Sequence record: NC_048818.1
From: Escherichia phage VEc33
Strand: one strand, 5' to 3'
DNA length: 64,000 nucleotides
The notes beneath the pieces are model-generated. The model made no database searches and was not told the DNA's origin. It was given only the letters and a program-made list of their open reading frames with translations. A program made the translations under genes and the position numbers. This document shows positions 142 through 24,640 of the stretch, piece after piece. Position 1 is the stretch's first letter, and every line of letters begins with the position of its first letter.

Positions 142-247
142 CTGCGTTTTTGAAATTTCTTGGACTTGGTACTCGGTGATAGAATCTAACTATCGCTACC
201 GCCGTGTAAAGACGGGGTTCTCTCATTAAACTAACCGAGCAAAAATT

Positions 248-325
248 TGGTGGATTGCCTGGGATTCGAACCCAGAACTGACGGATTAAAGGTCCGCTAC
301 TCTTATCCAGTTGAGCTAGCAATCC
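248..325 (-). tRNA. tRNA, anticodon loop CCUUUAA (UUU, Lys-type)
   Basis: RC gives acceptor GGATTGC/GCAATCC, D-arm GCTC..GAGT, T-arm CTGGG-TTCGAAT-CCCAG, encoded CCA. Confidence 0.6.
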
Positions 326-789: not shown

Positions 790-963
790 AAACTTCCTTA
801 ATAGAATGGACTTTTAAGTAAGAATGATTAATCCCAAACTCCGCCATTACTTCTTTTTCATCTTTTCCATAATGTGCAAGTAAGGATCTTGAGGTATTAT
901 TACCTAAACGTTTGTCGCTTACTACTAATCGAAATACTTTCATTTCGAAATCCTCTATTAAAA

Positions 964-1041
964 TGGAAGCGGGTGCAGGAATCGAACCTACCTCTTTCTA
1001 GCTTATGAGACTAGCGATCTCTACCAGAGATCTAACCCGCA
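964..1041 (-). tRNA. tRNA, anticodon CAU (Met or Ile2)
   Basis: RC: acceptor AGCGGGT/ACCCGCT, anticodon stem CTAGT/GCTAG with loop CTCATAA, T-arm AGGTTCGATTCCT, CCA encoded. Confidence 0.6.
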
Positions 1042-1047
1042 ATTGTT

Positions 1048-1125
1048 TGGTCTCCGTGGGAGGATTTGAACCCCCGACCCTATCGCCCCAAACGAAACGC
1101 TCTGGCCAAACTGAGCTACACGGAG
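1048..1125 (-). tRNA. tRNA-Pro (anticodon UGG)
   Basis: RC: acceptor CTCCGTG/CACGGAG, D-arm GCTC-AGTTTGGCCA-GAGC, loop TTTGGGG, T-arm GGGGG-TTCAAAT-CCTCC, CCA. Confidence 0.6.
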
Positions 1126-1129
1126 AATA

Positions 1130-1288
1130 TTATCTTTTTAACCACAGTAAAGATAAGCCTAGCATAGTGAATCCAGTACCTAATCCAATACATTTCTCTA
1201 TAAGAGTAAATGTATCTATGTTGAATGCTGTTATAACAATTGGGATACACCACAATAGCATAAAGACTTCGGCTATCTTATACTTCAT
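1130..1288 (-). CDS. small hydrophobic peptide (52 aa, predicted membrane), below the ORF-track size cutoff
   Basis: ATG at 1288 preceded by GAAGGAAAG RBS and by promoter 1322-1350; translation MKYKIAEVFMLLWCIPIVITAFNIDTFTLIEKCIGLGTGFTMLGLSLLWLKR. Confidence 0.3.
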   Translation of the reverse strand: MKYKIAEVFMLLWCIPIVITAFNIDTFTLIEKCIGLGTGFTMLGLSLLWLKR

Positions 1289-1321
1289 TTAGCTTTCCTT
1301 CTCTTCACTTTATAAGATATA

Positions 1322-1350
1322 TTATACAGAGAATTAAGTAAAATAGCAAA
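1322..1350 (-). promoter_or_regulatory. sigma70-type early promoter (RC: TTGCTA-17-TATAAT)
   Basis: attata 1322-1327 and tagcaa 1345-1350 on plus strand. Confidence 0.5.
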
Positions 1351-1496
1351 TGAATTTTTAATAAATTTACTTATTGTGTAGGCCACCTGGAGGCTACCAA
1401 CCCCACGGCTGACAAAGAAGTTTGCGAGACCTCTCTTAAAAGCCAGAATAGACCCGCCGGTCTATCGGAACCTACATAATAAGTAAACTTTATAGT

Positions 1497-1619
1497 GTCA
1501 TTCTAGGCAGGATTCGAACCTGCTATCACTTGTGCGGACTTACGAGAACCATTCTTTCACTCGAATCGAACGAGCTTCTGCCCTAGCCAAGCTGGTTTCC
1601 CCATCAACCACGCTAGAAT
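1497..1619 (-). ncRNA. atypical tRNA-like element (about 120 nt, two T-arm-like motifs)
   Basis: RC contains GCAGGTTCGAATCCTGC and TCGAGTTCGATTCGA T-arm-like motifs; termini CATTCTAG / CTAGAATG are complementary; too long for a canonical tRNA. Confidence 0.3.
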
Positions 1620-1741
1620 GTTAGATTGTTTTCAGTGCAAGAGTCCGAGTCTTGGACACGACCGCTTCGCAAGTACATAGGCAGCTTATCATGAGTCAGC
1701 ACTTCCGAATTGCTAGCTCCGTGTTCTGCACTGAAATTTTA

Positions 1742-2089
1742 TTAGTTTAACCGTAAAGTATTATCTACTTCACCATTAATTGTTCGGCATTCCTCTGGGA
1801 ATGCCGGGGTGGCTTTGTATTCCCACCACTCAGCACCATCATATTCCCCACGTTCTAGCCAAGTTCCATCGGCAAACCATACATTACCATAAAGTAATTG
1901 TCCACCGTATCCAGAATCATATTCAAAGTCTAGGTTATTAAGAAAATCCTCAATATCTTCTTCTGTATAACCTAAAGGTAATACCCAAACTTTTTTATCC
2001 CCATAATACCCAAATTCTATTTTAATACACTTAACTTCAGAATTAGTATTTTTTAAGGCAAGTAACAACTCTTCTTTGGCATTACGCAT
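1742..2089 (-). CDS. hypothetical protein
   Basis: 115 aa ORF in minus-strand early block; no recognisable motif. Confidence 0.5.
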   Translation of the reverse strand: MRNAKEELLLALKNTNSEVKCIKIEFGYYGDKKVWVLPLGYTEEDIEDFLNNLDFEYDSGYGGQLLYGNVWFADGTWLERGEYDGAEWWEYKATPAFPEECRTINGEVDNTLRLN

Positions 2090-2114
2090 AGTATATTCTC
2101 ATACTGAATTAATT

Positions 2115-2191
2115 TGGCGCGACCGATGGGATTTGAACCCACATTCTCTCCCGTGACAGGGGAGTACCATTACCAAGCCAGCCCCGGTCGC
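2115..2191 (-). tRNA. tRNA-Asp (anticodon GUC)
   Basis: RC: acceptor GCGACCG/CGGTCGC, anticodon stem CTCCC/GGGAG with loop CTGTCAC, T-arm GTGGG-TTCAAAT-CCCAT, CCA. Confidence 0.7.
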
Positions 2192-2200
2192 ATAATTTAT

Positions 2201-2386
2201 TTACTCAGCTTTGAGTTTTTCAATAGCTGCATTAAGTTCTTTAAGAAACTCTTTTCGTACATTAAGACGATTGAGACTTACTAGTATATCATGTTTAAGT
2301 TCTTCGATATATTTCTTCTCAACTTCAATATTGTTGATAGTGCTATCACGATGAACTTCTAGCTGCGCAATCACATTCTTGGACAT
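2201..2386 (-). CDS. hypothetical small coiled-coil protein
   Basis: 61 aa ORF; RBS GAGGAAATAAGT before ATG. Confidence 0.45.
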   Translation of the reverse strand: MSKNVIAQLEVHRDSTINNIEVEKKYIEELKHDILVSLNRLNVRKEFLKELNAAIEKLKAE

Positions 2387-2468
2387 ACTTATTTCCTCAG
2401 TTATTAATGAAAATGGTATCTGTGGCTGAATTCGATGTCAGCAATGATAGCTGGTTGGCTACCGGTTT

Positions 2469-2546
2469 ACTTAACTCTACACAGAATTTGGCGGTTCCTG
2501 CTGGATTCGAACCAGCAACCCTCAACTTAACAAGATGCCGCTCTAA
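2469..2546 (-). tRNA. tRNA, anticodon loop UUGUUAA (GUU, Asn-type)
   Basis: RC: acceptor GGTTCCT/AGGAACC, D-arm GCTC-TAATTGGTTA-GAGC, T-arm GCTGG-TTCGAAT-CCAGC, CCA; anticodon stem imperfect. Confidence 0.55.
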
Positions 2547-3061
2547 CCAATTAGAGCTAAGGAACCATATAAGTCAGAACTAGAGTTAATACGTTCTAGA
2601 TATTTACTAAGATCTCTAGAATTTATACTAAACCACTCATGCTCTTTTAAATCTTTGAAATACCGGTGAATTAGTTTTTCACCTTTTCGTTTGTCAAACC
2701 AAAAAGACCAGTGCTCTAACTTATAATCCCTATAAGGGGAATAAGTCTGATATTGAGCTAATCTCTCTTTTGGATTTTGACTCATACCTATTTTATACTG
2801 ATTTTTCCATGCAGGATTACTAATACAGTATACAAAACCTTCAGAAATAGGAAGTTTATTTTCCTGCTTAAACTTTATAAAGGAAAGTGCAGCAAGTTTT
2901 CTCGAATACATAGTATTCGTATTCTTTTTGGTATTACCATTGGTTCCTGAAAGATTTATATATTCTTCCATAAATCTTTGGATTAGTTCTGCGGTTATAT
3001 AGAAGGGCTCATTAGTAACAACGCCTTTCTTTACCAAACTATCAAAAACTTTTGTATGCAC
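2543..3061 (-). CDS. T5orf172-domain (GIY-YIG-like) protein, paralog of 316-789
   Basis: 172 aa; ISEGFVYCISNPAWKNQYKIGMSQNPKERLAQYQTYSPY aligns with the 316-789 product. Confidence 0.6.
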   Translation of the reverse strand: MHTKVFDSLVKKGVVTNEPFYITAELIQRFMEEYINLSGTNGNTKKNTNTMYSRKLAALSFIKFKQENKLPISEGFVYCISNPAWKNQYKIGMSQNPKERLAQYQTYSPYRDYKLEHWSFWFDKRKGEKLIHRYFKDLKEHEWFSINSRDLSKYLERINSSSDLYGSLALIG

Positions 3062-3082
3062 TACTTCTTTCCTTTAGCAAAT

Positions 3083-3158
3083 TGGACGACCGCATGAGAT
3101 TTGAACTCACATAAAAAGGATTTGCAATCCTTCGCCTAAGCCATTCAGCCAACGGTCG
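3083..3158 (-). tRNA. tRNA-Cys (anticodon GCA)
   Basis: RC: anticodon stem AAGGA/TCCTT with loop TTGCAAA; T-arm GTGAG-TTCAAAT-CTCAT; CCA encoded. Confidence 0.65.
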
Positions 3159-3206
3159 GTTTATCTTGTTCTGTCATGTTGCTTCTCCAGTTCAATTTAT
3201 GTAATT

Positions 3207-3236
3207 ATTATACAGAACTTTTGGAAACTAAGCAAC
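3207..3236 (-). promoter_or_regulatory. sigma70-type early promoter
   Basis: attata 3207-3212 and agcaac 3231-3236 on plus strand (RC GTTGCT-18-TATAAT). Confidence 0.45.
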
Positions 3237-3514
3237 TACATTTTTAAGAATTTGATGCCTTTCTTTTTCTTCTTATATTTCCACGTTAATGGATTCTGCC
3301 GATTGTGAACGCTTGAGATCTTCGTCTCGTCAAAGTTCTTCAATATCATGTAATCACAAGATAATTGTTCTAATGGAATGTGATCACCGTCAAAAGCATA
3401 TACATAAGGTTGTTGACTAGCACGATAATGATAGACTTTGTTAATTCTACGTTTTAGCGACTTATCAGCGCAGTAAATAAAGAAGTTTTCAGGATGCATC
3501 AGCATCTCCTTCAA
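3236..3514 (-). CDS. hypothetical protein
   Basis: 92 aa ORF. Confidence 0.45.
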   Translation of the reverse strand: MKEMLMHPENFFIYCADKSLKRRINKVYHYRASQQPYVYAFDGDHIPLEQLSCDYMILKNFDETKISSVHNRQNPLTWKYKKKKKGIKFLKM

Positions 3515-3516
3515 TT

Positions 3517-3592
3517 TGGTGCACCCTGTTCGTATCGAACGAACCTCTCAAGCTCTTCAGGCAAGCGCTAATCCATCTCAGCTAAAGGTGCA
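3517..3592 (-). tRNA. tRNA, anticodon loop CUGAAGA (GAA, Phe-type; low confidence)
   Basis: RC: acceptor GCACCTT/AGGGTGC, perfect T-arm GTTCG-TTCGATA-CGAAC, CCA; anticodon stem pairs poorly. Confidence 0.5.
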
Positions 3593-3597
3593 AATTT

Positions 3598-3676
3598 TGG
3601 CAAACCTACTAGGACTCGAACCTAGACCGTACGGTTTTAGAGACCGACATGCTGTCCAGTAACACTCTAGGAATGC
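3598..3676 (-). ncRNA. tRNA-like element with anticodon-type stem-loop CGGU-CUCUAAA-ACCG (anticodon position CUA)
   Basis: T-arm CTAGG-TTCGAGT-CCTAG and 3' CCA present, but no canonical acceptor pairing found by hand; either pseudo-tRNA or non-canonical tRNA. Confidence 0.35.
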
Positions 3677-3682
3677 AGAAAT

Positions 3683-3759
3683 TGGCGTCCTGTGCGGGGA
3701 TCGAACCCGCAAATCCTACCTTGAAAGGGTAGTGACTTTACCAGTTTGTCTAACAGGAC
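3683..3759 (-). tRNA. tRNA-Glu (anticodon UUC)
   Basis: RC: acceptor GTCCTGT/ACAGGAC, anticodon stem CTACC/GGTAG with loop CTTTCAA, T-arm GCGGG-TTCGATC-CCCGC, CCA. Confidence 0.7.
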
Positions 3760-3766
3760 TTAAATT

Positions 3767-3856
3767 TGGTGTTGGATGATGGAGTCGAACCACCCGAGAC
3801 CCTTCCGAGTCGGCAGATTTACAGTCTGCTTCGCTACCTCTACGATACTAATCCAA
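3767..3856 (-). tRNA. tRNA-Tyr (anticodon GUA), type II with long variable arm
   Basis: RC: acceptor GTTGGAT/ATCCAAC, anticodon stem GCAGA/TCTGC with loop CTGTAAA, long variable arm, T-arm GTGG-TTCGACT-CCAT, CCA. Confidence 0.7.
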
Positions 3857-3985
3857 CATATTTAAAAGTATTCAAATACTAGTTTAAACACTTTTAAATA
3901 TGTTTCCGAATTAGATAACTATTATATCAAGTTTTAAGGCACTGAGCAAGTCAAATTTTAAAGAACTTGCTCAGTGCTGTATTAG

Positions 3986-4261
3986 TTAGTCGAACTTAGG
4001 AGTGACAGTTAAGGAGAACGGAAGTTCGAAAACTTCTTCGCCCTCATTACTAACGGTAACTACACGACCTTTAAGTTCAGACATTAAAATATCAATATCA
4101 GCTTTTGCATCTGGAGCCATGCCAGCTTCAATACATTTAGCTTTAACTTCCGGTAAAAGCTCTACGTTATAGAGATAGAGCCACTCAATCTCACCTTCCC
4201 AGTCTTCCCAGGATTTGCAGATTGCACTTTCAATACCAGTTGCTACAACACGATTTTGCAT
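3986..4261 (-). CDS. hypothetical acidic protein
   Basis: 91 aa ORF, Glu/Asp-rich; promoter 4292-4320 upstream. Confidence 0.5.
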   Translation of the reverse strand: MQNRVVATGIESAICKSWEDWEGEIEWLYLYNVELLPEVKAKCIEAGMAPDAKADIDILMSELKGRVVTVSNEGEEVFELPFSLTVTPKFD

Positions 4262-4291
4262 TAATTAACTCCTCCATCAATTTATATAATT

Positions 4292-4320
4292 ATTATATCA
4301 GAAATTTAAGGCAAAAGGCA
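4292..4320 (-). promoter_or_regulatory. sigma70-type early promoter
   Basis: attata 4292-4297 on plus strand with -35-like element about 17 nt away. Confidence 0.4.
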
Positions 4321-4351
4321 AGTACATTTTTAAAAATTCTGTTTGGAGGAG

Positions 4352-4558
4352 CTAAACTCCAGATTCTTCAGCTAAGTCTAGGCTAATAAGAGTTATAGCC
4401 ATAATTGCTGCACCGTGTTCTTTTTCTCCGGTGTTTTTAGCAGAGTCTATAATAGTCTTAATCTGTTCGTAATAGCCCTTTACTTCTTGTTCAATACCTG
4501 CCTCGGCTATCATGCCTTTAGTCATGATTCGTTGCATAGTAATTTCACGGTTAGCCAT
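4352..4558 (-). CDS. hypothetical protein
   Basis: 68 aa ORF; start ATGGCTAA overlaps the stop of the upstream small ORF. Confidence 0.45.
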   Translation of the reverse strand: MANREITMQRIMTKGMIAEAGIEQEVKGYYEQIKTIIDSAKNTGEKEHGAAIMAITLISLDLAEESGV

Positions 4559-4720
4559 GATGTTTCTCCAATTTCATCTTTAATAGTCTACAAATAAAAT
4601 CAATGTCTTCATCCGTGCCTAGATCTCTATCTTCAAGAGTTGCCTTGAAGTTTTTAGTCAATTCCATGAGGATAACTTCTCTAGAACGACGTGTTGGCGG
4701 AGGTGGATGTCTATACATCT
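4553..4720 (-). CDS. small ORF (about 55 aa), below the ORF-track size cutoff
   Basis: ATG at 4720 after GGAAATAAG; translation MYRHPPPPTRRSREVILMELTKNFKATLEDRDLGTDEDIDFICRLLKMKLEKHHG; stop overlaps next start. Confidence 0.3.
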
Positions 4721-4733
4721 TATTTCCTTAATT

Positions 4734-4810
4734 TGGTAGGGGTGGTGGGATTCGAACCCACAAAACCTGAATTTTAAGTCCAGTACCTATGCCAATTCGA
4801 TTACACCCCC
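4734..4810 (-). tRNA. tRNA with anticodon loop CUUAAAA (UAA, reads UUA Leu) but short variable arm
   Basis: RC: acceptor GGGGGTG/CACCCCT, anticodon stem CTGGA/TTCAG, T-arm GTGGG-TTCGAAT-CCCAC, CCA; 77 nt, type-I architecture. Confidence 0.55.
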
Positions 4811-4817
4811 GTGTAGT

Positions 4818-5006
4818 TTAGTCAATTACTTTTGAGGCTTCAAGGTAGTCGATATAGTGTATGTTTTCTACCGTAATCATATAATCTGCCACTTTATCCA
4901 TAGCTTGGGCTTCAGAGGTAGCTCTGGCTAACCTATATCCTTTTTTATATTCATCCTGGTATTCTCTATCTTGGATAAACACAACATAAACTATATATAG
5001 ATCCAT
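4818..5006 (-). CDS. hypothetical protein
   Basis: 62 aa ORF. Confidence 0.4.
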   Translation of the reverse strand: MDLYIVYVVFIQDREYQDEYKKGYRLARATSEAQAMDKVADYMITVENIHYIDYLEASKVID

Positions 5007-5023
5007 TTGTTACCTCTATTTAA

Positions 5024-5101
5024 TTTGGTGGCTCCCCGAGGATTCGAACCTACGTACCTTCCGGTTATGAGCCGGGTGCTCATACCATATGAGCTTGAGA
5101 A
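5024..5101 (-). tRNA. tRNA-Met-type (anticodon CAU; loop CUCAUAA)
   Basis: RC: acceptor GGTTCTC/GGGAGCC (two G-U pairs), D-arm GCTC-ATATGGTAT-GAGC, anticodon stem CCGG/CCGG, TTCGAAT T-loop, CCA. Confidence 0.6.
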
Positions 5102-5107
5102 CCAAAA

Positions 5108-5197
5108 TCTGGCGGAAGAAGTGGGAATCGAATCCACAAGGCTATATTTCAAACCGACAGATTAGCAATCTGCTGCAATACCGTTATGCTATTCTTC
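5108..5197 (-). tRNA. tRNA-Ser (anticodon GCU), type II
   Basis: RC: acceptor GGAAGAA/TTCTTCC, anticodon stem GCAGA/TCTGT with loop TTGCTAA, long variable arm, T-arm GTGGA-TTCGATT-CCCAC, CCA. Confidence 0.65.
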
Positions 5198-5219
5198 CGA
5201 ATTTATAAGATATATTATA

Positions 5220-5738
5220 TTAGAAATTTAGCTTCATAGCAAGAAAATTTTTCAAGTTTTCGGTAGACATCTCATCTACGTCTACAGGAGAAACAAAGCC
5301 GTTTAATTTTCTAGCAAATTTTTCACCCGCAGGATCATTATCCCCGACAGCTACCAATTTAAAAGGTAATAATTTCAGTTGCTTTAATAACGCTTTTCCT
5401 GGAGAAGAACCCAACATTGCTAGGGCTGGATAACCAGCGTTATGTAACGCAACTGCCTTAAATACAGATTCAGCGATCAATACTACTTTTTCATCTCCAT
5501 TGAGAGTTTCTAGTCCCCATACACACTGGGTAGTAGAATAAGTAAAGTATTTAGCTTCAAAAGGGCACTTACCATGACCTTTTGGAGCAGAAGGATTATA
5601 AGTTTGGTAGCCCCTCAACATCCCAGAGAAATCATATAACGGGACTGTTAGCCATCCTTCCGGACTTAACCAGCAATGATATTTTTCTGTATCAAATCCT
5701 CTAGATAAGAGGTGCTGTGTTAGCTCATCAACATTCAT
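5220..5738 (-). CDS. Toprim-domain protein (primase/topoisomerase-like fold)
   Basis: 172 aa; conserved Glu in VVLIAESVF and DxD in VAVGDNDPAGEKF. Confidence 0.5.
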   Translation of the reverse strand: MNVDELTQHLLSRGFDTEKYHCWLSPEGWLTVPLYDFSGMLRGYQTYNPSAPKGHGKCPFEAKYFTYSTTQCVWGLETLNGDEKVVLIAESVFKAVALHNAGYPALAMLGSSPGKALLKQLKLLPFKLVAVGDNDPAGEKFARKLNGFVSPVDVDEMSTENLKNFLAMKLNF

Positions 5739-5770
5739 ACCTGGTTCCTCTCTCTCAAATTTATAGATAT

Positions 5771-5799
5771 ATTATACAGAGAATTTAGCATTCAAGCAA
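5771..5799 (-). promoter_or_regulatory. sigma70-type early promoter
   Basis: attata 5771-5776 and aagcaa 5794-5799 on plus strand. Confidence 0.5.
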
Positions 5800-5915
5800 T
5801 CAAATTTTTTAACTTTTTAGAGGAAAATCATAGGGCACTTAAGGGTAGCAGATAAGTGGTGAGGACCAAAATTTGTGACCCCACTAAAAATCCGGGGGCA
5901 ATTTTTAAAGACCCC

Positions 5916-5944
5916 TTGACATTTTCGCTGGGGTAGTGTAAAGT
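5916..5944 (+). promoter_or_regulatory. strong sigma70 promoter (TTGACA, extended -10 TGnTAAAGT) for the plus-strand cassette
   Basis: TTGACATTTTCGC box at 5916; same -35 context recurs at 21943 and 34125. Confidence 0.5.
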
Positions 5945-6006
5945 ATATGTTATGGATGAGTGATCAAAGAGACACACATTTTCTATATACTAGGAGGTGT
6001 CAAAAA

Positions 6007-6978
6007 ATGACAGAAGAAGTAGCTAAGAGTCCTGAAACCGTCGCTAGCGTAGCAGCAGAACTGCATCGTCACGAGGAATCAGATAAGAAAAAGTGGGAGA
6101 AGGTCAGAGCCTACGAAGAAAAACATCGTGTTCACGATGAAGAAGATGATGATGAACATTGTCATAAATATGGAAAACATAAAATGCAAGAACCAGTAAA
6201 CGTATTCACTAGTGGCTTCCCTGGCCTACTGGGTGGTTACCCAGCAAACGCAAGTGCTTTCGGTGGTGAAGGTATGGGACTATTCGGAGCTATCCTAATC
6301 GGTGCTCTATTAACAGGCGGATTTGGTGGTTTTGGTGGTTTTGGCCGTGGTGCTGGCGTTGCCGCTGAAGGGACTGCTGTGGACGCGATCCTTTCTAACC
6401 AAGATACTGCAAGTATTCTAGCTGCAATCAATACTACTCGTACAGAAGCTAACCAGGGCACTGGGGCTGTTCTAAGCGCAGTAAACGGTGTGGGAGCTGC
6501 TCAAGCTGCTAGCACTCAGCAAGTTCTGACTACTATCTACGGTACAGGTGCTAATCTGTCAAACCAGATCTGTGCTGAAACTCGTAACGTTATTCAGGGT
6601 CAGTTCGATCTTTCTCGTCAGATGGATCAATCTTTCGCTGCTAACCAGATCGCACGTGCTCAAGATAAATTTGACTCTGCTCAGATTGCTTTCCAGCAGT
6701 CTATTCAGACCAATAACCAGTTTGCCGCTGTTCAGGCTCAGATGTGTGCTAACCAGAATGCTATCGAACGTCAGCTTGCCGAATGTTGCTGTGAGCTTCA
6801 GACTGCAATCGCTGGTGTAACTACTGCACGTATCCAGGACGAACTGAATGAATGCCGTCTGCGTGAAGCAATCGCTGCAGGTAGCGGTGCTAACGGTCAG
6901 GTAATTAATCAAATCGCTGTAAGTCTTGGTGCTATCACTCAGACTCTGGCTGGTCTGCAGGCTAAACTGCCGGCTTAA
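6007..6978 (+). CDS. low-complexity protein: His/acidic N-terminus, Gly-rich hydrophobic segment, Ala/Gln/Asn-rich region with Cys cluster
   Basis: ATG 6007 after TAGGAGGTG RBS; GLFGAILIGALLTGGFGGFGGFG; ECCCEL; GC-richer, codon usage of a highly expressed gene; opposite strand to neighbours. Confidence 0.55.
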   Translation: MTEEVAKSPETVASVAAELHRHEESDKKKWEKVRAYEEKHRVHDEEDDDEHCHKYGKHKMQEPVNVFTSGFPGLLGGYPANASAFGGEGMGLFGAILIGALLTGGFGGFGGFGRGAGVAAEGTAVDAILSNQDTASILAAINTTRTEANQGTGAVLSAVNGVGAAQAASTQQVLTTIYGTGANLSNQICAETRNVIQGQFDLSRQMDQSFAANQIARAQDKFDSAQIAFQQSIQTNNQFAAVQAQMCANQNAIERQLAECCCELQTAIAGVTTARIQDELNECRLREAIAAGSGANGQVINQIAVSLGAITQTLAGLQAKLPA

Positions 6979-6999
6979 TATTAAGGGGAGGAGCCCATT

Positions 7000-7416
7000 A
7001 TGAGTAAATATGGTTTTGTAAATAACGGACTTAATCAAAGTATGGGCTCCCAGCAGCCCGTTCCGGGACTGGATAACCCTTACCTACAACAGTTGCAACA
7101 GCGTTTAGCAGAAGCGCAACAGATGCAGCAACAACTCCAGCAAAACCCTGGAAGTGTGAGTCCTATGCAAATGATGCAGCAAATGAGCGGGCAGTCGCAA
7201 ATGCCTCAACAAATGCAGCAACAGGTGCCTCAGCAGCAAGTTCAGCAGCAAACCCAACAACCGCAGGTTTCTGCGGAAGGACAGGCAGTACTAGCCCTTT
7301 TCGAAGACTTCGCAAAGACAGAGGATGGGAAGCAGCTTGTATCACTTATGGGTAAGTTTAATAGCTTCTGCCAAAGCCAAGTTGCAAAAGCTCAAAATGG
7401 TGGTAATAACTCCTAA
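7000..7416 (+). CDS. Gln/Met-rich low-complexity protein
   Basis: 138 aa; RBS AAGGGGAGGAG; QQMQQQLQQNPGSVSPMQMMQQMSGQSQMPQQMQQQ. Confidence 0.55.
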   Translation: MSKYGFVNNGLNQSMGSQQPVPGLDNPYLQQLQQRLAEAQQMQQQLQQNPGSVSPMQMMQQMSGQSQMPQQMQQQVPQQQVQQQTQQPQVSAEGQAVLALFEDFAKTEDGKQLVSLMGKFNSFCQSQVAKAQNGGNNS

Positions 7417-7425
7417 GGAGGAATT

Positions 7426-7620
7426 ATGTGTTGCAGAAAATCTGTTTCGTGCTGCCCAATGCCTGTAGCACGTTGTTGCTCTCCAGCAATGTTTACGCAA
7501 ATACCGGCGTTCAATCCGTTTGCCTTTAAGCCTACTCTTATCCTGCCCCCTAGAGTAGATTTTCAGTCAAGATTGGCCTCCCGTATGGGTGGTTGCTGTA
7601 ACAAGAGTATATGGTTCTAA
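7426..7620 (+). CDS. small Cys-rich protein (CC motifs)
   Basis: 64 aa; RBS AAGGAGG; MCCRKSVSCCPMPVARCCSP...GGCCNK; followed by terminator. Confidence 0.5.
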   Translation: MCCRKSVSCCPMPVARCCSPAMFTQIPAFNPFAFKPTLILPPRVDFQSRLASRMGGCCNKSIWF

Positions 7621-7633
7621 AGAACCAAACAAT

Positions 7634-7672
7634 AAAGCCCCTAGTCGAAAGACTTAGGGGCTTTTTCTTTTG
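7634..7672 (+). terminator. rho-independent terminator of the plus-strand cassette
   Basis: hairpin AAGCCCCTAGTC-GAAA-GACTTAGGGGCTT followed by TTTTCTTTT. Confidence 0.7.
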
Positions 7673-7675
7673 CCT

Positions 7676-7716
7676 TAAATACAGAAAAGCCCGCGCTCTC
7701 GGAGGAAACGCGGGCT
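7676..7716 (-). terminator. rho-independent terminator after the SPFH gene
   Basis: hairpin AAGCCCGCG...CGCGGGCTT followed by U-run on minus strand; convergent with 7634-7672. Confidence 0.6.
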
Positions 7717-7740
7717 TGGTTCGAAGATTACGTGTAACTA

Positions 7741-8688
7741 TTACTTGTTACGCATATCCATGATCATTTGACCATCGTAACCAGTACCTACTACAGTCTG
7801 AGGCACACCACCTTGATATTTCTGAGCACGAATCATATCAACTTCCAGTTGTTTCCAACGAATCATCTCAGGAGTAATGGTACGTTGCAGTGCGGCGTTA
7901 GCTTCAGCTTCTTTCTTAGCTGCGTACAGTTTAGCATCTGCGTCACGTTCATTAGCGATAGCTTGGTTGTTGCGAGCTTCACGATCTGCTTCTGCTTGTT
8001 TAACTTTTTGCTGTGCTTCCTGTTCAACACGAGCTAATTCAGCTTTAGCAGCATTAGCCTGTTCTTCACGAACTTTGGTATTCTGTACCTGTTCCATGAT
8101 TACCGGTGGCAAAGTAATATCCTGAAGGAATACCTGCTTAACTGTGTAACCATATGGGCGTGCGTACTCTTCAACTTCCTGTTGAATTGCAGTTTGCAAT
8201 TGAGCCTGAATTTTAGCATCAAACAAATCTTGTGCTTTAGGTACAGACTTACCAAACTCACGAATAGTAGACAGTAATTTTTCAGTTACATATTTGTCTA
8301 ACGCTTGATCCTGAGTACCTGCATTAATACGGTTAATCGGTGCCTTAGAACCATCAAACTGCAACATAACAGTCAGATCAACAGTGGATTTAAACTTATC
8401 CTGACTAGGAACCTGAAGTTTATCTAATTTTACAGCAATATCTTTAGTACTAAAAGTATCGAAAGAAGCAAAAGGATTTACAATATGAAAGCCGGGTAAT
8501 ACTGGATTAGGGTCTACTTTACCCAGGAATGTTTGAGTTTTAACCGTACCATCAGAAACAATAGTATATGAATTAAAAGCTAGAATTAAACCTGCTAAAC
8601 CAACTACAGCACCAATCCCCCAACGTTTAATAGTACGAATTACTTTCTGCTCAGAAGTTAGTTCTTTCATATTTTTAGTATTAAACAT
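7741..8688 (-). CDS. SPFH/band-7 (HflC/prohibitin-like) membrane protein
   Basis: 315 aa; N-terminal TM WGIGAVVGLAGLILAF, SPFH core, Ala/Glu/Gln-rich coiled-coil. Confidence 0.65.
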   Translation of the reverse strand: MFNTKNMKELTSEQKVIRTIKRWGIGAVVGLAGLILAFNSYTIVSDGTVKTQTFLGKVDPNPVLPGFHIVNPFASFDTFSTKDIAVKLDKLQVPSQDKFKSTVDLTVMLQFDGSKAPINRINAGTQDQALDKYVTEKLLSTIREFGKSVPKAQDLFDAKIQAQLQTAIQQEVEEYARPYGYTVKQVFLQDITLPPVIMEQVQNTKVREEQANAAKAELARVEQEAQQKVKQAEADREARNNQAIANERDADAKLYAAKKEAEANAALQRTITPEMIRWKQLEVDMIRAQKYQGGVPQTVVGTGYDGQMIMDMRNK

Positions 8689-8720
8689 ATATTTCCTTTG
8701 TTTTAGTTACAGTTAATAAA

Positions 8721-8795
8721 ATTGGCCGAGGTGACAGGATTCGAACCTGCATAAAGGAATTTAGAAGACTCCTGCCTATCCCTTAGACTACACCC
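8721..8795 (-). tRNA. tRNA-Arg (anticodon UCU)
   Basis: RC: acceptor CGGGGTG/CACCTCG, anticodon stem GGAGT/ATTCC with loop CTTCTAA, T-arm GCAGG-TTCGAAT-CCTGT, CCA. Confidence 0.6.
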
Positions 8796-9299
8796 CGTTT
8801 AAGTATTTTTAAGAACTCTCGTAAAAACTCTTAAAAATACAGACGATACCGGGAGAGTCATAAGTCTCACTCATTAAGTATTTCAAGACAAAATACGGTA
8901 ACGTCTATTATTTTCCAGTTTAAGTCAGGGTGACTTAGTGGTTATGTCCTGCGGTATATTGAGGACTCGGTTAGGCTTGGGGTCATGACTTCCCGCCTTT
9001 TGCTGCTACTCAACAGGAGTTATCGCGAATTACCTGTGCTATTGTGCACCATTAGTGACATCTCTCATGTCAGCATTTCCCACTTTGTGGATAGCTTGAA
9101 AAACTACTCCGATATGGAGAAAGAACTTCACTACCCTAGAATACCTTCTAAAGTTCTTCTTTAGCCTGGACATAGTTAAATCGTAATAAAACTATTCAGC
9201 AGACTGGTTGGTTAGTCTGGAACCAACTACCGCGTGGTTTAGGCAGTGCGCAACTAACCTCGGAAGCTTTTACGTTAAAAGCATCAGTTATCCAGTTCT

Positions 9300-9647: not shown

Positions 9648-10091
9648 TTAATTAAATTCGCCAGCAATCTGAGCAGCAGTACCACCATCATAACGCCCAG
9701 AAAATTCTTCCTTAATCGCTTTCATCAGCATACCTTTTGTAATTCCAGGGTTTAGCTTAACTAATTCTGCAAAGTATTTACGAATCTCAGTATCAGATAA
9801 CTGAGGAGGCAGATACTCCTGCAACCACTTAGTTAGAATGTATTCATACTGAGCGGACTGCAAGCTATAACTATCAAGATCTTGACCATGAAGTTTAGCT
9901 TTCATCTGGTTAATGCTTTTTAGTTGAGCTTTGAGATAAGACACAAATTGTTCAGAAGTGATGAAATCTTTATCAATACGCTGAAGATCCCCGATTATGG
10001 TCTGATAGCTTTTAGCGACTTCTTTATCAGAACCATTAAACTTAGAATCCTGCAAAGCTCTACGCAAAACATCTAAAATATTCTCTTCCAT
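9648..10091 (-). CDS. GatB/YqeY-domain protein
   Basis: 147 aa; C-terminal LNPGITKGMLMKAIKEEFSGRYDGGTAAQIAGEF typical of YqeY. Confidence 0.6.
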   Translation of the reverse strand: MEENILDVLRRALQDSKFNGSDKEVAKSYQTIIGDLQRIDKDFITSEQFVSYLKAQLKSINQMKAKLHGQDLDSYSLQSAQYEYILTKWLQEYLPPQLSDTEIRKYFAELVKLNPGITKGMLMKAIKEEFSGRYDGGTAAQIAGEFN

Positions 10092-10329: not shown

Positions 10330-10797
10330 TTAAGTTTTAGTGACAACAGGTTTATAAAACGTATGTCCCTTAATCTTAGTTGTTTTCTTAAACTTCTTTG
10401 TCCAGTAAGGTTTATCTTTACCACTATGGAAGTACAATGCTCCATGCGTAGGATCTTGTGGTAAATCAACGTAGTATATCACTCTAGCTAAATTCTTAGC
10501 GGTTTGCCAAGCCTCATCAGTTTTATCAACTTTTGGTCTCTTAGACACCCAAGAGAACTGGTTAGACTGATATACTACTTTACAGTAGGAATCTGGGAAT
10601 TTACCAGAGTTTACACGGTTTTTAGTAACGTGTGCAATCGCCGTCATTCCCTTTATGCCCTCACCACGACTTTCGAAATAGATATTTTTAGCAATGCAAT
10701 CTATTTCTTTTGCATCGTGCGATGCCTGACTACTAAAGCTGAAGGTAAGGGCAGCTACTAAAAGCAAAGCTGCCTTCATTCTTTTTACTCCTGCCAA
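10330..10797 (-). CDS. SleB-like cell-wall hydrolase with N-terminal signal peptide
   Basis: 155 aa; signal-like MKAALLLVAALTFSFSSQA; IDCIAKNIYFESRGE...AIAHVTKNRV...VVYQSNQFSWV resembles Hydrolase_2/SleB. Confidence 0.6.
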   Translation of the reverse strand: MAGVKRMKAALLLVAALTFSFSSQASHDAKEIDCIAKNIYFESRGEGIKGMTAIAHVTKNRVNSGKFPDSYCKVVYQSNQFSWVSKRPKVDKTDEAWQTAKNLARVIYYVDLPQDPTHGALYFHSGKDKPYWTKKFKKTTKIKGHTFYKPVVTKT

Positions 10798-11102
10798 TCA
10801 TATTCAACACGATTGGGGTTTTCTTTGTACCCTAAGTCAAGCAAATCATTACGCATATGTTGCTTAGCTACTGGGTTCGAGGTTACTAGTACCACTTTCT
10901 TTGGTCTCTGCCCAAATTCTAAGAGTAAACGAAGAATTTGATAACCTTCCATACCATCTACAGCCAAGTCATTATCCATATAAACGAAGTGGCCTGTGGT
11001 ATCAGTTTTATTCAGAAACTCTACAGCGGCTTCTGGGGTTCGAATGATAATGTCCATTCCGTGAAGATTACGCACATCATCAATCAAAATATGAAAAGTC
11101 AT
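10785..11102 (-). CDS. stand-alone CheY-like receiver (REC) domain protein
   Basis: 105 aa; HILIDDV (DD pair), FVYMDNDLAVDGMEGYQILRLL (phospho-acceptor region), VVLVTSNP (Thr), YKENP (Lys) align with CheY. Confidence 0.6.
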   Translation of the reverse strand: MTFHILIDDVRNLHGMDIIIRTPEAAVEFLNKTDTTGHFVYMDNDLAVDGMEGYQILRLLLEFGQRPKKVVLVTSNPVAKQHMRNDLLDLGYKENPNRVEYDWQE

Positions 11103-11132
11103 AATAGCCTCGTTTCATCAATTTAAAAATAT

Positions 11133-11161
11133 ATTATACAGATAACTTAATAAATTAGCAA
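11133..11161 (-). promoter_or_regulatory. sigma70-type early promoter
   Basis: attata 11133-11138 and tagcaa 11156-11161. Confidence 0.5.
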
Positions 11162-12489: not shown

Positions 12490-13191
12490 TCAAATTTTCA
12501 TTTTTTCGATCATAGCTGCAACACAATAGCTTTCAACTAAGGCATCAAATGCAGGATCATGCTTAACCGGATAGATCCCATAACGAATAGTGTCCATCTT
12601 CTCCATTTTAGCTATTGCCCAGCTAATACCTTCGGTCTCTAGAGCCTTATAACTGTATCCAGCTTGCATCCAGAGATTACGAAGAGATCGAACATTACCC
12701 AAATTCCAGAATTTCCACGGAACTACCTCTTCATTGGTTCCAGCATGGAACGTGTTTGCAGAGTAGATAGTCATATCAAACTCTGGGCCATTGCCATAAT
12801 ACAAAGCATTTTCGCCTAGAGCCAACTCCATAATATTTTGAGCCATAGAGAAGGCAGCATAGTTTGAGCCTAATTTATTAGTGCAATGATGTTTACCATT
12901 TTGGAAGGCAATCAGTTTTGGATTACGTTCCTTCATAGCTTCCATAATGTGGATAGCAGACGGGCTATTTTTAGCTTGATCCATCCAGAATGCTAGAGTA
13001 GATGCTGTAACTTTGGCACCAGAATTAAGCTGATCCTGCACATCCAAAGTAACAAATACTAGATCAGGGTCTTTATCAACCCCATGCATAGCCACAAAAG
13101 CGAAAGAAGGCATTACGATATGAGTAGTACCACAATCTCCTGGAGTTCCTAGAGATTCAATATCTAGCATACCAAATGGTTTTACTTTCAT
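12490..13191 (-). CDS. DEDDh-type 3'-5' exonuclease (DexA/Orn-like)
   Basis: 233 aa; Exo I MLDIESLGT (D-x-E), Exo III YPVKHDPAFDAL (H-x4-D). Confidence 0.55.
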   Translation of the reverse strand: MKVKPFGMLDIESLGTPGDCGTTHIVMPSFAFVAMHGVDKDPDLVFVTLDVQDQLNSGAKVTASTLAFWMDQAKNSPSAIHIMEAMKERNPKLIAFQNGKHHCTNKLGSNYAAFSMAQNIMELALGENALYYGNGPEFDMTIYSANTFHAGTNEEVVPWKFWNLGNVRSLRNLWMQAGYSYKALETEGISWAIAKMEKMDTIRYGIYPVKHDPAFDALVESYCVAAMIEKMKI

Positions 13192-24477: not shown

Positions 24478-24640
24478 TCCAGAAAACATGCTTATTGAGC
24501 AATGGAACTTTGGTTATAATGCTGGTGTAGCTACTTGTATTGCTAGATTGGATACGCTTATTAAGCAAGAAAAGGTACGCCCTGAGGAAGCAATTTTACT
24601 CCGAAATATTATCGAAGGATTTAAGCAAGGAATCGTATAG
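24446..24640 (+). CDS. hypothetical protein
   Basis: 64 aa from ATG 24446 with GGAGGAG RBS; overlaps previous ORF end. Confidence 0.4.
   Translation: MDFLNQNLKSNPENMLIEQWNFGYNAGVATCIARLDTLIKQEKVRPEEAILLRNIIEGFKQGIV

What the first reader, a model, noticed from the sequence alone, without database searches (positions are those of the whole stretch)
10785..11102. Orphan CheY-like receiver domain encoded by a phage
The 105-aa product aligns along its whole length with single-domain response regulators such as CheY. The acidic pair is present (HILIDDV), as is the phospho-acceptor region (FVYMDNDLAVDGMEGYQILRLL), the conserved Thr (VVLVTSNP) and the Lys (YKENP). There is no output domain and no cognate kinase nearby. 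A free receiver domain could act as a phosphate sink or decoy for a host two-component pathway. It sits in an early operon with a secreted SleB-like hydrolase, a YqeY protein and an SPFH protein, which looks like a host-physiology module.
Basis: partly seen in the sequence, partly recalled or inferred. Interest (0 to 1): 0.55.

Follow-up and report, generated by a model that had tools for sequence, protein, structure and literature searches.

The report
Phage cREC domain, not CheY decoy
This small gene of a T5-type phage encodes a stripped-down relative of bacterial 'receiver' signalling domains; it belongs to an already named, mostly phage-borne family (cREC) that is predicted to process damaged RNA ends or related nucleotide products rather than to intercept host signalling, and its chemistry has never been tested.

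The parts
10785..11102 (-). cREC gene (105 aa), ortholog of phage T5 gene T5.084. It is a minimal receiver-fold protein. Family-wide conserved residues are D8, D9, R11, D17, R21, D43, D45, G53, P67, T74, N76 and Y92.
   Evidence: ORF. PF20274 at E 1.5e-14, 54.8 bits against GA 27. phrog_1479 at E 1.5e-29. 96% identical to T5.084. Conserved residues. AF2 models.
11108..11111 (-). Shine-Dalgarno GAGG, 5 nt upstream of the ATG
   Evidence: Read directly from the sequence.
11133..11161 (-). Sigma-70-like promoter TTGCTA-17-TATAAT upstream of the gene
   Evidence: Consensus scan, 10/12 matches. A promoter is annotated at the equivalent place upstream of T5.084 in NC_005859. The scan as a whole found no more sites than shuffled sequence gives, so this site rests mainly on the T5 annotation.
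10330..10779 (-). Co-transcribed downstream gene: SleB/CwlJ-like cell-wall hydrolase with an N-terminal signal-peptide-like sequence (MKAALLLVAALTFSFSSQAS). Its ATG is 5 nt after the cREC stop, and the GGAG inside the last cREC codons can serve as its ribosome-binding site. This is context; a functional link is not shown.
   Evidence: PF07486 Hydrolase_2 at E 2.4e-25. Sequence. T5.083 is annotated with the same 450-nt extent.
12490..13191 (-). Rv2179c-like 3'-5' exoribonuclease-family gene, 1.4 kb upstream (context). The same family lies 1.4 kb from cREC in Streptomyces phage Jay2Jay.
   Evidence: PF16473 at E 1.1e-7, 32.2 bits. Jay2Jay gp128 matches PF16473 at E 3.2e-5, 24.1 bits, below GA 27.
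9648..10091 (-). YqeY/GatB-tail-like protein (context). It has its own upstream promoter in T5.
   Evidence: PF09424 at 26.3 bits, just under GA 27. phrog_1460 at E 3.6e-46. T5 promoter annotation.
167..8797 (-). Phage tRNA gene cluster (14 tRNAs called). The cREC gene lies 2 kb beyond its last member, tRNA-Arg at 8723-8797.
   Evidence: ARAGORN. Rfam.
24640..25476 (+). SIR2-family gene. It is a candidate pathway partner by inference only, lying 13.5 kb away.
   Evidence: PF02146 at E 8.3e-25. The sirtuin + HAD_SAK neighbourhood of T5-like phage SP15 is described as a predicted RNA-repair system in PMC9503650.
25632..26138 (+). HAD_SAK_2 'Swiss-army-knife' RNA-repair phosphatase gene next to SIR2. 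It is a candidate pathway partner by inference only.
   Evidence: PF18143 at E 1.8e-20.

Best explanation
The gene encodes a member of the cREC family (PF20274). It is the ortholog of T5.084. The protein is a cut-down receiver-fold protein that has lost alpha1, alpha5 and the active-site Lys. It keeps the phosphoryl-handling core of a receiver: the D8/D9 acidic pair, which probably binds a metal; D43 at the tip of beta3; and T74 at the tip of beta4. It adds family-conserved residues: D45 two positions after D43, N76 two positions after T74, R11 and R21.

I propose it is an enzyme, not a switch or a decoy. In this model D43 attacks a phosphate ester. D45 acts as general acid/base, as the second Asp does in the DxD motif of HAD phosphatases such as the phosphatase domain of T4 Pnkp. 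The arginines replace the missing Lys in holding the phosphate.

The most likely substrates are 2',3'-cyclic or terminal phosphates on RNA, especially tRNA cut by host anticodon nucleases or toxins, or the ADP-ribose cyclic phosphate made during NAD-dependent RNA repair. In T5-like phages the protein would work as a free-standing early accessory protein. It would act alongside the phage tRNA set, an Rv2179c-like exoribonuclease, and the SIR2 + HAD_SAK_2 pair encoded elsewhere in the same genome.

Shown: family membership, fold, conserved residues, absence of kinases, and the RNA-repair contexts of some relatives. Inferred: catalysis, nucleophile and acid/base roles, substrate, and partnership with SIR2/HAD_SAK_2.
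For: Family and fold:
- PF20274 at 54.8 bits against GA 27, with no PF00072 hit.
- 434 cluster representatives (50% identity) and at least 4533 clusters (90% identity). All 120 of the latter that were listed carry PF20274 and are about 100 aa, stand-alone.
- Invariant in 103 diverse members: D8, D9, R21, D43, D45, G53. Near-invariant: R11, D17, P67, N76, Y92. Position 74 is T or S in all.
- hhalign mapping: D43 = CheY D57, D45 = D+2, T74 = T87, N76 = T+2, with alpha1 deleted.
- Two confident AF2 models share one topology with no alpha1 and no alpha5.
- The PDB fold neighbours are receiver domains. The closest BFVD neighbours are other phage cREC proteins.

Context in relatives:
- In IMG/VR contig L014, cREC (5001-5306) overlaps the start of an AAA_33 PNK-like kinase. 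Next come RNA_lig_T4_1 and two calcineurin-like phosphoesterases. cREC thus sits at the head of a kinase/ligase RNA-repair cassette, where an end-healing phosphatase would be expected.
- Homologs of that Metallophos_2 gene lie near cREC in two further lineages. An RlaP RNA-repair nucleotidyltransferase lies near cREC in L002.
- An RNA ligase lies 2.4 kb from cREC in L039.
- In Streptomyces phage Jay2Jay, cREC lies inside the tRNA cluster. An Rv2179c-like nuclease is 1.4 kb away and a T4-like RNA ligase 2.5 kb away.
- tRNA genes lie within about 5 kb of cREC in 10 of 31 non-redundant loci outside the T5 group.

This phage:
- This window carries SIR2 and HAD_SAK_2. That pair is the T5-like 'type 3' predicted RNA-repair neighbourhood of PMC9503650.
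- The T5 tRNA region is experimentally a counter-defence against host tRNA cleavage by PARIS (PMC11464382).
- Knock-down of T5.084 is scored 'Not Fit' in a defence-poor lab strain, as expected for a conditional accessory gene (PMC11879866 supplementary table).
- The family's describers predicted cyclic-phosphate processing from gene neighbourhoods (PMC7824862, PMC9503650).
Against: - No member of the family has been assayed. PMC9503650 says so explicitly, and I found no later paper.
- Most sampled loci (more than 20 of about 33) show only small unknown phage genes around cREC. No neighbour family is conserved across lineages. RNA-repair linkage is therefore a minority pattern.
- In this window no RNA ligase or polynucleotide kinase was found among the ORFs scanned or in the annotation of close relatives. 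SIR2/HAD_SAK_2 is 13.5 kb away on the other strand.
- tRNA proximity has no proper null. tRNAs and small accessory genes tend to share the same plastic regions.
- The T5-like clade lacks the K/R found after the last strand in 81 of 103 members, so it could be functionally diverged.
- A covalent Asp intermediate on a phosphodiester (cyclic phosphate) is chemically less usual than on a monoester.
- I could not inspect model coordinates, so the active-site geometry is inferred from sequence position and secondary structure only.
Confidence: 0.5

Rival explanations
1. Reader's hypothesis. The protein is a free CheY-like receiver that is phosphorylated by host histidine kinases or acetyl phosphate. 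It acts as a phosphate sink or decoy for a host two-component pathway.
For: - The DD pair, the acceptor-position Asp and the Thr are present and align with CheY D12/D13, D57 and T87.
- The fold neighbours are response regulators.
- It is a single domain with no output domain.
- Autophosphorylation by small-molecule donors cannot be excluded by computation.
Against: - No PF00072 hit.
- alpha1 and alpha5 are absent in both models and in the profile alignment. By established knowledge of HK853-RR468 and Spo0B-Spo0F complexes and of specificity-residue studies, these elements carry the kinase-recognition surface.
- The conserved Lys is absent. Under the definition in PMC12632262, that alone makes it a pseudo-receiver.
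- The family occurs in phages of Proteobacteria, Vibrio, Bacillus, Streptomyces and Microbacterium. Its active-site periphery is invariant (D+2 Asp, T+2 Asn, two Arg), which points to one common small substrate rather than diverse host kinases.
- No kinase lies in any sampled neighbourhood.
Confidence: 0.05
2. The protein is a counter-defence enzyme that destroys a nucleotide-derived immune signal, such as cyclic mono- or oligonucleotides or cyclic ADP-ribose isomers, rather than repairing RNA ends.
For: - The same catalytic core would serve this function.
- The describers list cADPr-type molecules among candidate substrates, and report Nudix fusions and NAD-enzyme linkage.
- In L014 a Tad3 anti-Thoeris gene lies two genes upstream of cREC.
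- T5-like genomes are rich in NAD-related genes: SIR2 here, NadR/PnuC and NADAR in close relatives.
- The gene is dispensable in a lab strain that lacks such defences.
Against: - There is no direct link to any known signal-degrading family.
- The clearest operon (L014) is a kinase/ligase RNA-repair cassette.
- No experimental data exist.
Confidence: 0.2
3. The protein is a non-catalytic pseudo-receiver. It would be a small binding or adaptor protein, or a nucleotide 'sponge', whose conserved acidic pocket binds a ligand or partner without turnover.
For: - It lacks one of the five catalytic receiver residues, and many pseudo-receivers are regulatory (PMC12632262).
- It is very small and stand-alone.
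- Most neighbourhoods are uninformative.
Against: - Four of the five receiver catalytic positions are strictly conserved, and additional polar residues around them are invariant or nearly so (D45, N76, R11, R21) across members averaging 26% column identity. This pattern is typical of an active site.
- It heads a cassette of RNA-repair enzymes in L014.
Confidence: 0.12
4. The function is tied to the adjacent secreted cell-wall hydrolase, for example as a cytoplasmic regulator or helper of an envelope-remodelling module.
For: - The gene is tightly coupled to a SleB-like hydrolase here and in T5, with a 5-nt gap.
- In the unrelated Streptomyces phage Jay2Jay a non-homologous NlpC/P60 hydrolase ends 3 nt before cREC.
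- In Bacillus phage Goe8 a poly-gamma-glutamate-hydrolase-like gene is two genes upstream.
Against: - The adjacency is absent in My1 and in KVP40-like phages.
- No cell-wall hydrolase family recurred among 144 neighbours from 22 lineages.
- cREC has no signal peptide whereas the hydrolase has one.
- No known chemistry links the two.
Confidence: 0.05

Closest known systems
cREC_REC family (Pfam PF20274; 'cyclic-phosphate processing Receiver domain'; Iyer, Anantharaman, Krishnan, Burroughs & Aravind 2021, PMC7824862; Iyer et al. 2022, PMC9503650), including T5.084 and KVP40.0304
   Same: It scores above the family threshold and carries all family-invariant residues. It is stand-alone, about 100 aa and phage-borne, with no kinase partner. 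It is 96% identical to T5.084 and 100% identical to proteins of phages phiAPCEc03 and EH7. Some GenBank records already use the family name.
   Different: Nothing essential differs. The T5-like clade has N instead of the majority H in the D-x-D motif (38 of 103 members also have N) and A instead of G at position 47. It has W instead of the usual K/R after the last strand. Unlike the published neighbourhoods, it is not adjacent to an RNA ligase, sirtuin or Nudix gene. Its immediate partner is a SleB-like hydrolase.
Classical two-component receiver domains (Response_reg PF00072; CheY, Spo0F)
   Different: There is no PF00072 match. alpha1 and alpha5 are missing and the conserved Lys is missing. 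D+2 and T+2, which vary in true receivers (PMC12632262), are an invariant Asp and a near-invariant Asn here. There is no kinase, Hpt or output partner.
HAD-superfamily acyl-phosphatases, in particular the 3'-phosphatase domain of T4 polynucleotide kinase-phosphatase (own knowledge: DxDxT motif; Asp165 nucleophile, Asp167 acid/base; heals 2',3'-cyclic phosphate RNA ends, Das & Shuman 2013)
   Same: This is a proposed working analogy. Both have an Asp nucleophile followed two residues later by a second Asp, at the C-terminal end of a central strand of a Rossmann-like sheet, with further acidic residues for Mg2+. In L014 cREC heads a kinase + RNA ligase cassette that has no HAD phosphatase among the scanned genes.
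   Different: The two are not homologous at the family level. In HAD enzymes the DxD follows beta1 and the fold has squiggle, flap and cap elements. Here the DxD follows beta3 and the DD pair follows beta1. No HAD Pfam model is matched. The analogy is an inference, not a test.
2H phosphoesterases (LigT/ThpR, CPDase), the established cyclic-phosphate-opening enzymes of RNA repair
   Same: The predicted role is the same: resolving 2',3'-cyclic or ADP-ribose cyclic phosphates. PMC9503650 treats the two families together.
   Different: The fold is unrelated. The two H-x-T/S motifs are absent from this sequence (read from the translation). The chemistry differs: His-based and metal-independent in 2H enzymes, against a proposed Asp-based mechanism here.
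Pseudo-receiver domains as defined by Bourret and colleagues (PMC12632262)
   Same: It lacks one of the five catalytic receiver residues (K), which formally meets their definition.
   Different: Their analysis concerns bacterial proteins identified as receivers by PF00072 and a few minor families. PF20274 and phage proteins are not mentioned (0 occurrences). Here the remaining active site is more conserved than in receivers, not less.

Membership tests
cREC_REC (PF20274) | Scores above the curated Pfam gathering threshold over the whole domain | tested here: met
   54.8 bits against 27, E 1.5e-14, residues 4-87 on model positions 2-86 of 88. All close and distant homologs carry PF20274.
cREC_REC (PF20274) | Conserved aspartates equivalent to the receiver catalytic Asp residues, plus family-specific conserved residues | tested here: met
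   D8, D9, R21, D43, D45 and G53 are invariant in 103 members. R11, D17, P67, N76 and Y92 are at least 90% conserved. Position 74 is T or S in all. All are present in this protein.
cREC_REC (PF20274) | Never associated with histidine kinases | tested here: met
   No HisKA/HATPase_c or Hpt gene was found in the scanned window ORFs. None appears in the annotated relatives, nor in about 33 sampled loci.
cREC_REC (PF20274) | Linked to RNA-repair or NAD/ADP-ribose-processing genes (RNA ligase, sirtuin, Nudix, 2H, kinase) | tested here: inconclusive
   This was seen for some relatives: L014 (adjacent kinase + Rnl1 + Metallophos), Jay2Jay and L039. In this window SIR2 + HAD_SAK_2 exist but lie 13.5 kb away. 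The immediate neighbours are a cell-wall hydrolase, DUF7616 and YqeY.
cREC_REC (PF20274) | Cyclic-phosphate phosphoesterase activity (the family's name-giving prediction) | not testable with these tools
   This is a prediction only. It was described as experimentally uncharacterised in PMC9503650, and no later study was found.
Two-component receiver domain (Response_reg, PF00072; CheY-like) | Significant match to the Response_reg profile | tested here: not met
   PF00072 does not appear at E<=1. PDB sequence and profile searches give receiver hits only at E 0.1-0.9.
Two-component receiver domain (Response_reg, PF00072; CheY-like) | (beta-alpha)5 topology with five helices | tested here: not met
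   Both AF2 models show: b 4-7, loop 8-17, b 18-20, a 23-32, b 39-42, a 53-62, b 69-72, a 77-90, then a short hairpin (93-94 and 100-102). alpha1 and alpha5 are absent. hhalign shows an 8-residue deletion at alpha1.
Two-component receiver domain (Response_reg, PF00072; CheY-like) | Acidic pair (DD) after beta1 | tested here: met
   D8/D9 align with CheY D12/D13 and are invariant.
Two-component receiver domain (Response_reg, PF00072; CheY-like) | Phospho-acceptor Asp at the end of beta3 | tested here: met
   D43 aligns with CheY D57, directly follows strand 39-42 and is invariant. Whether it is phosphorylated is not testable here.
Two-component receiver domain (Response_reg, PF00072; CheY-like) | Conserved Thr/Ser at the end of beta4 | tested here: met
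   T74 aligns with CheY T87. The position is T in 75 and S in 28 of 103 members.
Two-component receiver domain (Response_reg, PF00072; CheY-like) | Conserved Lys at the end of beta5 | tested here: not met
The other candidate position, 103, is K/R in 81 of 103 members but W in this protein. The profile alignment ends at residue 76.
Two-component receiver domain (Response_reg, PF00072; CheY-like) | Cognate histidine kinase or phosphorelay partner | tested here: not met
   None is encoded in the window or in related phages. Phosphotransfer from host kinases is not testable with these tools.
HAD phosphatase superfamily | DxD(x)T motif after beta1 with HAD fold elements, and a match to a HAD profile | tested here: not met
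   There is no HAD family hit. The D-x-D here follows beta3. This is a functional analogy only.
2H phosphoesterase superfamily | Two H-x-T/S motifs in a duplicated fold | tested here: not met
   The four His residues (H4, H14, H38, H82) are followed by IL, GM, FV and MR, so no H-x-T/S motif exists (translation). The fold neighbours are receiver domains.

The most novel reading that the evidence does not exclude
cREC proteins are a previously untested class of receiver-fold enzymes with an Asp nucleophile and a D+2 acid/base. In this reading a signalling fold has been converted into a hydrolase. T5-like phages would use T5.084 as a dedicated counter-defence factor. It would either heal cyclic-phosphate ends of tRNAs cut by host nucleases or destroy an NAD/ADP-ribose-derived cyclic-phosphate product or immune signal. 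The tight coupling to a secreted peptidoglycan hydrolase recurs with a non-homologous hydrolase in a Streptomyces phage. That could point to a link between envelope remodelling and this chemistry that nobody has described.
Probability: 0.15. Interest if true: 0.65.

Novelty: already known. Interest (0 to 1): 0.3.

Why it matters
The gene is not a discovery. It is T5.084, and it belongs to a family that was named and given a predicted function in 2021. The useful outcome is a correction: it should not be annotated or pursued as a CheY-like response regulator or a two-component decoy.

It still has some value. cREC is a large family (thousands of sequence clusters, almost all phage-borne) with a strictly conserved active site and no biochemical data. 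T5 is a genetically tractable model phage whose tRNA region is already known to counter host tRNA cleavage. T5.084 is therefore a convenient entry point. It could test whether a receiver fold has been converted into an RNA-end or ADP-ribose cyclic-phosphate hydrolase, and which host defences it answers.

Tried and rejected
- NCBIfam gave no hit.
- PDB sequence and profile searches found no significant relative and no solved structure of the family. The best-scoring hits were repeat-protein artefacts such as TAL effector, armadillo and NLRP3.
- The search for related loci with the broad alignment A2 failed because no stretch was conserved enough. A narrower alignment, A4, yielded only 16 viral and 8 genomic loci.
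- All-against-all clustering of 544 neighbour ORFs found no neighbour conserved across lineages. A Pfam count over 144 neighbours agreed. I therefore dropped the idea of a universal partner gene.
- Literature searches for 'cREC' were swamped by 'carbapenem-resistant E. coli'.
- No paper mentions T5.084 in its main text.
- The HIDEN-SEQ preprint has no T5 gene-level data.
- The CRISPRi-ART supplement is internally inconsistent. One sentence lists T5.084 among 'Fit' unknowns. The data table (mean -4.20, p 0.88, 'Not Fit') and the stated list of 17 Fit genes do not include it. I followed the table.
- The afdb50 fold library was unavailable.
- I considered a formal enrichment test for tRNA proximity and dropped it. 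Only the flanks of the contigs are held, so no fair null could be computed.
- I could not inspect model coordinates. The equivalence of D43 and D45 to receiver positions rests on hhalign and secondary structure. One HMMER alignment to a de novo receiver-like protein put D45, not D43, opposite the acceptor Asp.
Full report
**What is there.** The window is a T5-like phage (Demerecviridae, Tequintavirus). A 3-kb stretch around the finding is 99.5% identical to Salmonella phage MET_P1_179_112 and matches 445 phage records. The ORF at 10785..11102 on the minus strand is real: 105 aa, ATG start. A GAGG ribosome-binding site lies 5 nt upstream (sequence). A sigma-70-like promoter, TTGCTA-17-TATAAT, lies at 11161..11133. 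The protein is 96% identical to T5.084 of phage T5, which carries an annotated promoter at the same place. It is 100% identical to proteins of phages phiAPCEc03 and EH7.

**Which family.** Pfam gives one significant hit: PF20274 cREC_REC, "cyclic-phosphate processing Receiver domain" (E 1.5e-14, 54.8 bits against a cut-off of 27, residues 4-87). Response_reg (PF00072) does not appear even at E<=1. PHROGs places the protein in phrog_1479, function unknown. NCBIfam has nothing.
- A word-indexed search found only T5-like relatives.
- An exhaustive profile search found 434 representatives of 50%-identity clusters.
- A profile search of the 90%-identity clusters found at least 4533 hits. All 120 listed carry PF20274 and are about 100 aa.
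- Among isolated phages the family occurs in T5-likes, KVP40-like Vibrio phages, and Streptomyces, Microbacterium, Bacillus, Erwinia and Roseobacter phages.
- Only 8 loci came from 185,579 species genomes with the pattern used, and all were MAG contigs.
- Some recent GenBank records already name the T5-like protein [quoted passage not shown].

**Fold.** Two AlphaFold2 models were built, one from 16 close sequences and one from 103 diverse sequences. Both are confident (pLDDT 90.6 and 95.7; pTM 0.84 and 0.88) and share one topology: strand 4-7, loop 8-17, strand 18-20, helix 23-32, strand 39-42, helix 53-62, strand 69-72, helix 77-90, and a short hairpin at 93-94 and 100-102.
- Foldseek agrees, weakly: best E 2e-3, TM about 0.57.
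- In BFVD the nearest structures are other phage cREC proteins.
- No solved structure of the family exists by sequence or profile search.

So this is a receiver-superfamily fold, but a cut-down one with no alpha1 and no alpha5.

**Residue mapping.** I ran a profile-profile alignment of 103 cREC sequences against six classical receivers. The alignment gives 89.8% probability over 71 columns.

| cREC residue | CheY equivalent |
|---|---|
| D8/D9 | D12/D13 |
| D43 | D57 |
| D45 | N59 (D+2) |
| G53 | G65 |
| T74 | T87 |
| N76 | E89 (T+2) |

An 8-residue deletion replaces alpha1, and the alignment stops at residue 76.

The fourth does not. K93 is K in only 21 of 103 members (T 17, V 13, R 11). It varies K/Q/T/V even among close relatives. 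The other candidate position, just after the last strand, is K/R in 81 of 103 members but W in this protein.

Family-wide invariant residues are D8, D9, R21, D43, D45 and G53. R11, D17, P67, N76 and Y92 are at least 90% conserved, and position 74 is always T or S. In true receivers the D+2 and T+2 positions are variable and tune reaction rates (PMC12632262). Here they are fixed or nearly fixed as Asp and Asn.

**Why not a decoy for host two-component systems.**
- By the definition in PMC12632262, a receiver lacking any one of the five catalytic residues is a pseudo-receiver.
- More importantly, alpha1 and the beta5-alpha5 region are missing. From established structural work on HK-RR complexes, these carry the kinase-recognition surface.
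- The family's describers state it is never found with histidine kinases (PMC7824862, PMC9503650).
- I saw none in the window ORFs scanned or in the annotated relatives.
- I saw none in about 33 independent loci.
- A family spread over phages of Gram-negative and Gram-positive hosts, with an invariant active-site periphery, fits one common small substrate better than diverse host kinases.

**What the contexts say.** Most loci are uninformative, showing arrays of small unknown early genes. No neighbour family is conserved across lineages. A minority are telling.
- In IMG/VR contig L014 the cREC gene overlaps the start of an AAA_33 PNK-like kinase. Next come a T4 Rnl1-type RNA ligase and two calcineurin-like phosphoesterases. 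A Tad3 anti-Thoeris gene lies two genes upstream. In that cassette cREC sits where an end-healing phosphatase would be expected.
- Homologs of the Metallophos_2 gene lie near cREC in two other lineages.
- An RlaP RNA-repair nucleotidyltransferase lies near it in L002.
- An RNA ligase lies 2.4 kb away in L039.
- In Streptomyces phage Jay2Jay, cREC lies inside the tRNA cluster. It is 1.4 kb from an Rv2179c-like nuclease, near a tmRNA, and 2.5 kb from a T4-like RNA ligase.
- tRNA genes lie within about 5 kb in 10 of 31 non-redundant loci outside the T5 group. In three of these (L003, L015, L038) they flank the gene closely on both sides. I have no fair null for this number.

**This phage.** The gene sits 2 kb beyond the last of 14 tRNA genes. 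It is 1.4 kb from an Rv2179c-like exoribonuclease-family gene and near a YqeY/GatB-tail-like gene. The same window carries SIR2 (24640-25476) next to a HAD_SAK_2 "Swiss-army-knife RNA repair" phosphatase (25632-26138). That is the neighbourhood PMC9503650 describes for T5-like phage SP15 as a predicted NAD-dependent RNA-repair system. Close relatives add NadR/PnuC or a NADAR gene. No RNA ligase or polynucleotide kinase was found among the window ORFs scanned or in the annotated relatives.

Two experimental results bear on this:
- T5's own tRNA-Lys neutralises the tRNA-cleaving PARIS defence (PMC11464382).
- In a transcriptome-wide knock-down screen, T5.084 is scored Not Fit in E. coli DH10B (mean -4.20, p 0.88). 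One sentence of the supplementary note says otherwise.

A gene that is dispensable on a defence-poor host is what one expects of a conditional counter-defence or repair factor.

**Most likely mechanism (inference).** The protein is an enzyme that uses the receiver phosphoryl-transfer core.
- D8/D9 hold a metal.
- D43 attacks the phosphorus.
- D45, two residues on, acts as general acid/base.
- T74, N76, R11 and R21 hold the phosphate in place of the missing Lys.

The D-x-D arrangement is the functional signature of HAD acyl-phosphatases. By my own knowledge, the HAD phosphatase domain of T4 Pnkp heals 2',3'-cyclic phosphate RNA ends with exactly such a pair. This differs slightly from the "metal-independent" wording in PMC9503650. 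The strict conservation of the DD pair makes me expect a metal site.

The substrate is most likely a cyclic or terminal phosphate on cleaved RNA or tRNA, or ADP-ribose cyclic phosphate from NAD-dependent repair. A nucleotide immune signal is the main alternative. None of this has been assayed for any family member.

**The hydrolase link.** The SleB-like hydrolase gene starts 5 nt after the cREC stop, and its likely ribosome-binding site lies inside the last cREC codons. T5 annotation places promoters upstream of T5.084 and again downstream of T5.083, so the two genes form a bicistron. The YqeY and SPFH genes are separate units, divided off by promoters, a stable RNA (RNAX) and tRNA-Arg.

In My1 the cREC gene is not next to the hydrolase. 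In Jay2Jay, however, a non-homologous NlpC/P60 hydrolase ends 3 nt before cREC. In Bacillus phage Goe8 a PghP-like hydrolase is two genes away. I cannot explain this recurrence. It did not show up among 144 neighbours from 22 environmental lineages.

**Verdict.** The family and its predicted role are already published, so the finding is known rather than new. The biochemistry remains open and is testable in T5.

Noticed in passing
window 3598-3674 (-): ARAGORN calls this 'tRNA-Pyl (CTA)'. It is the T5-like tRNA-Trp with a single C-to-T change in the middle of the anticodon (CCA to CTA). It is otherwise identical to the tRNA-Trp of phage HdH2 and differs at one other base from that of MET_P1_179_112. 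It would read UAG, so it is either a natural amber-suppressor tRNA or a sequencing variant.
   Followed up: partly
window ~8798-9647 (-), especially 9300-9371 (-): This roughly 850-nt gap has only short (under 60 aa), apparently spurious ORFs. It lies between the YqeY-like gene and tRNA-Arg and corresponds to the 'RNAX' stable RNA of unknown function annotated in phage T5. Rfam finds a tRNA-like element there (35.5 bits, above the gathering score of 29) that ARAGORN did not call.
   Followed up: partly
window 24640-25476 (+), 25632-26138 (+), 26141-26971 (+): A SIR2-family gene sits next to a HAD_SAK_2 'Swiss-army-knife RNA repair' phosphatase. Two DUF7415 proteins follow. This is the T5-like sirtuin neighbourhood that Iyer et al. 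2022 predicted to be an NAD-dependent RNA-repair system.
   Followed up: partly
window 10330-10779 (-); L038 (Streptomyces phage Jay2Jay) 3516-4288; L037 (Bacillus phage Goe8) 2827-4369: cREC is tightly coupled to a small cell-envelope hydrolase in unrelated phages. Here it is SleB/Hydrolase_2 with a 5-nt gap. In Jay2Jay it is NlpC/P60 with a 3-nt gap. In Goe8 a poly-gamma-glutamate-hydrolase-like gene lies two genes away. The hydrolases are not homologous, and the association is absent in most other loci.
   Followed up: partly
L010 (Salmonella phage Kenya-K44) 2985-3806; protein P0033: In some T5-like phages the cREC domain is the C-terminal part of a 273-aa ORF whose N-terminal half is an HNH_3 homing-endonuclease domain. 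This looks like an endonuclease inserted in frame upstream of the gene.
   Followed up: partly
L014 (IMGVR_UViG_3300024054_000020) 3834-8007: The gene order is Tad3 (anti-Thoeris), one unknown gene, cREC, AAA_33 kinase, T4 Rnl1-type RNA ligase and two calcineurin-like phosphoesterases. This is a compact candidate anti-defence and RNA-repair island.
   Followed up: partly
window 5220-5738 (-): This small Toprim-domain protein is the ortholog of T5.076 and is annotated 'DNA primase' in GenBank records. The CRISPRi-ART T5 table labels it 'anti-defense, known' and Semi-Fit. The annotations disagree.
   Followed up: no
PMC11879866 supplementary files 1 and 16: The supplementary note lists T5.084 and T5.090 among Fit genes of unknown function. 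The data table scores both Not Fit, and the stated 17-gene Fit list omits them. This is an inconsistency within the paper.
   Followed up: yes
relatives L036 (MET_P1_179_112) 25986-27720 and L001 (HdH2) 16866-17315, compared with window 5947-7416 and 14293-14730: Close relatives carry NadR + PnuC (NAD salvage and nicotinamide riboside uptake) near the SPFH gene, or a NADAR/DUF1768 gene near RNase H. This window has other genes or nothing at those spots. The NAD-related accessory genes therefore vary between T5-like phages.
   Followed up: no
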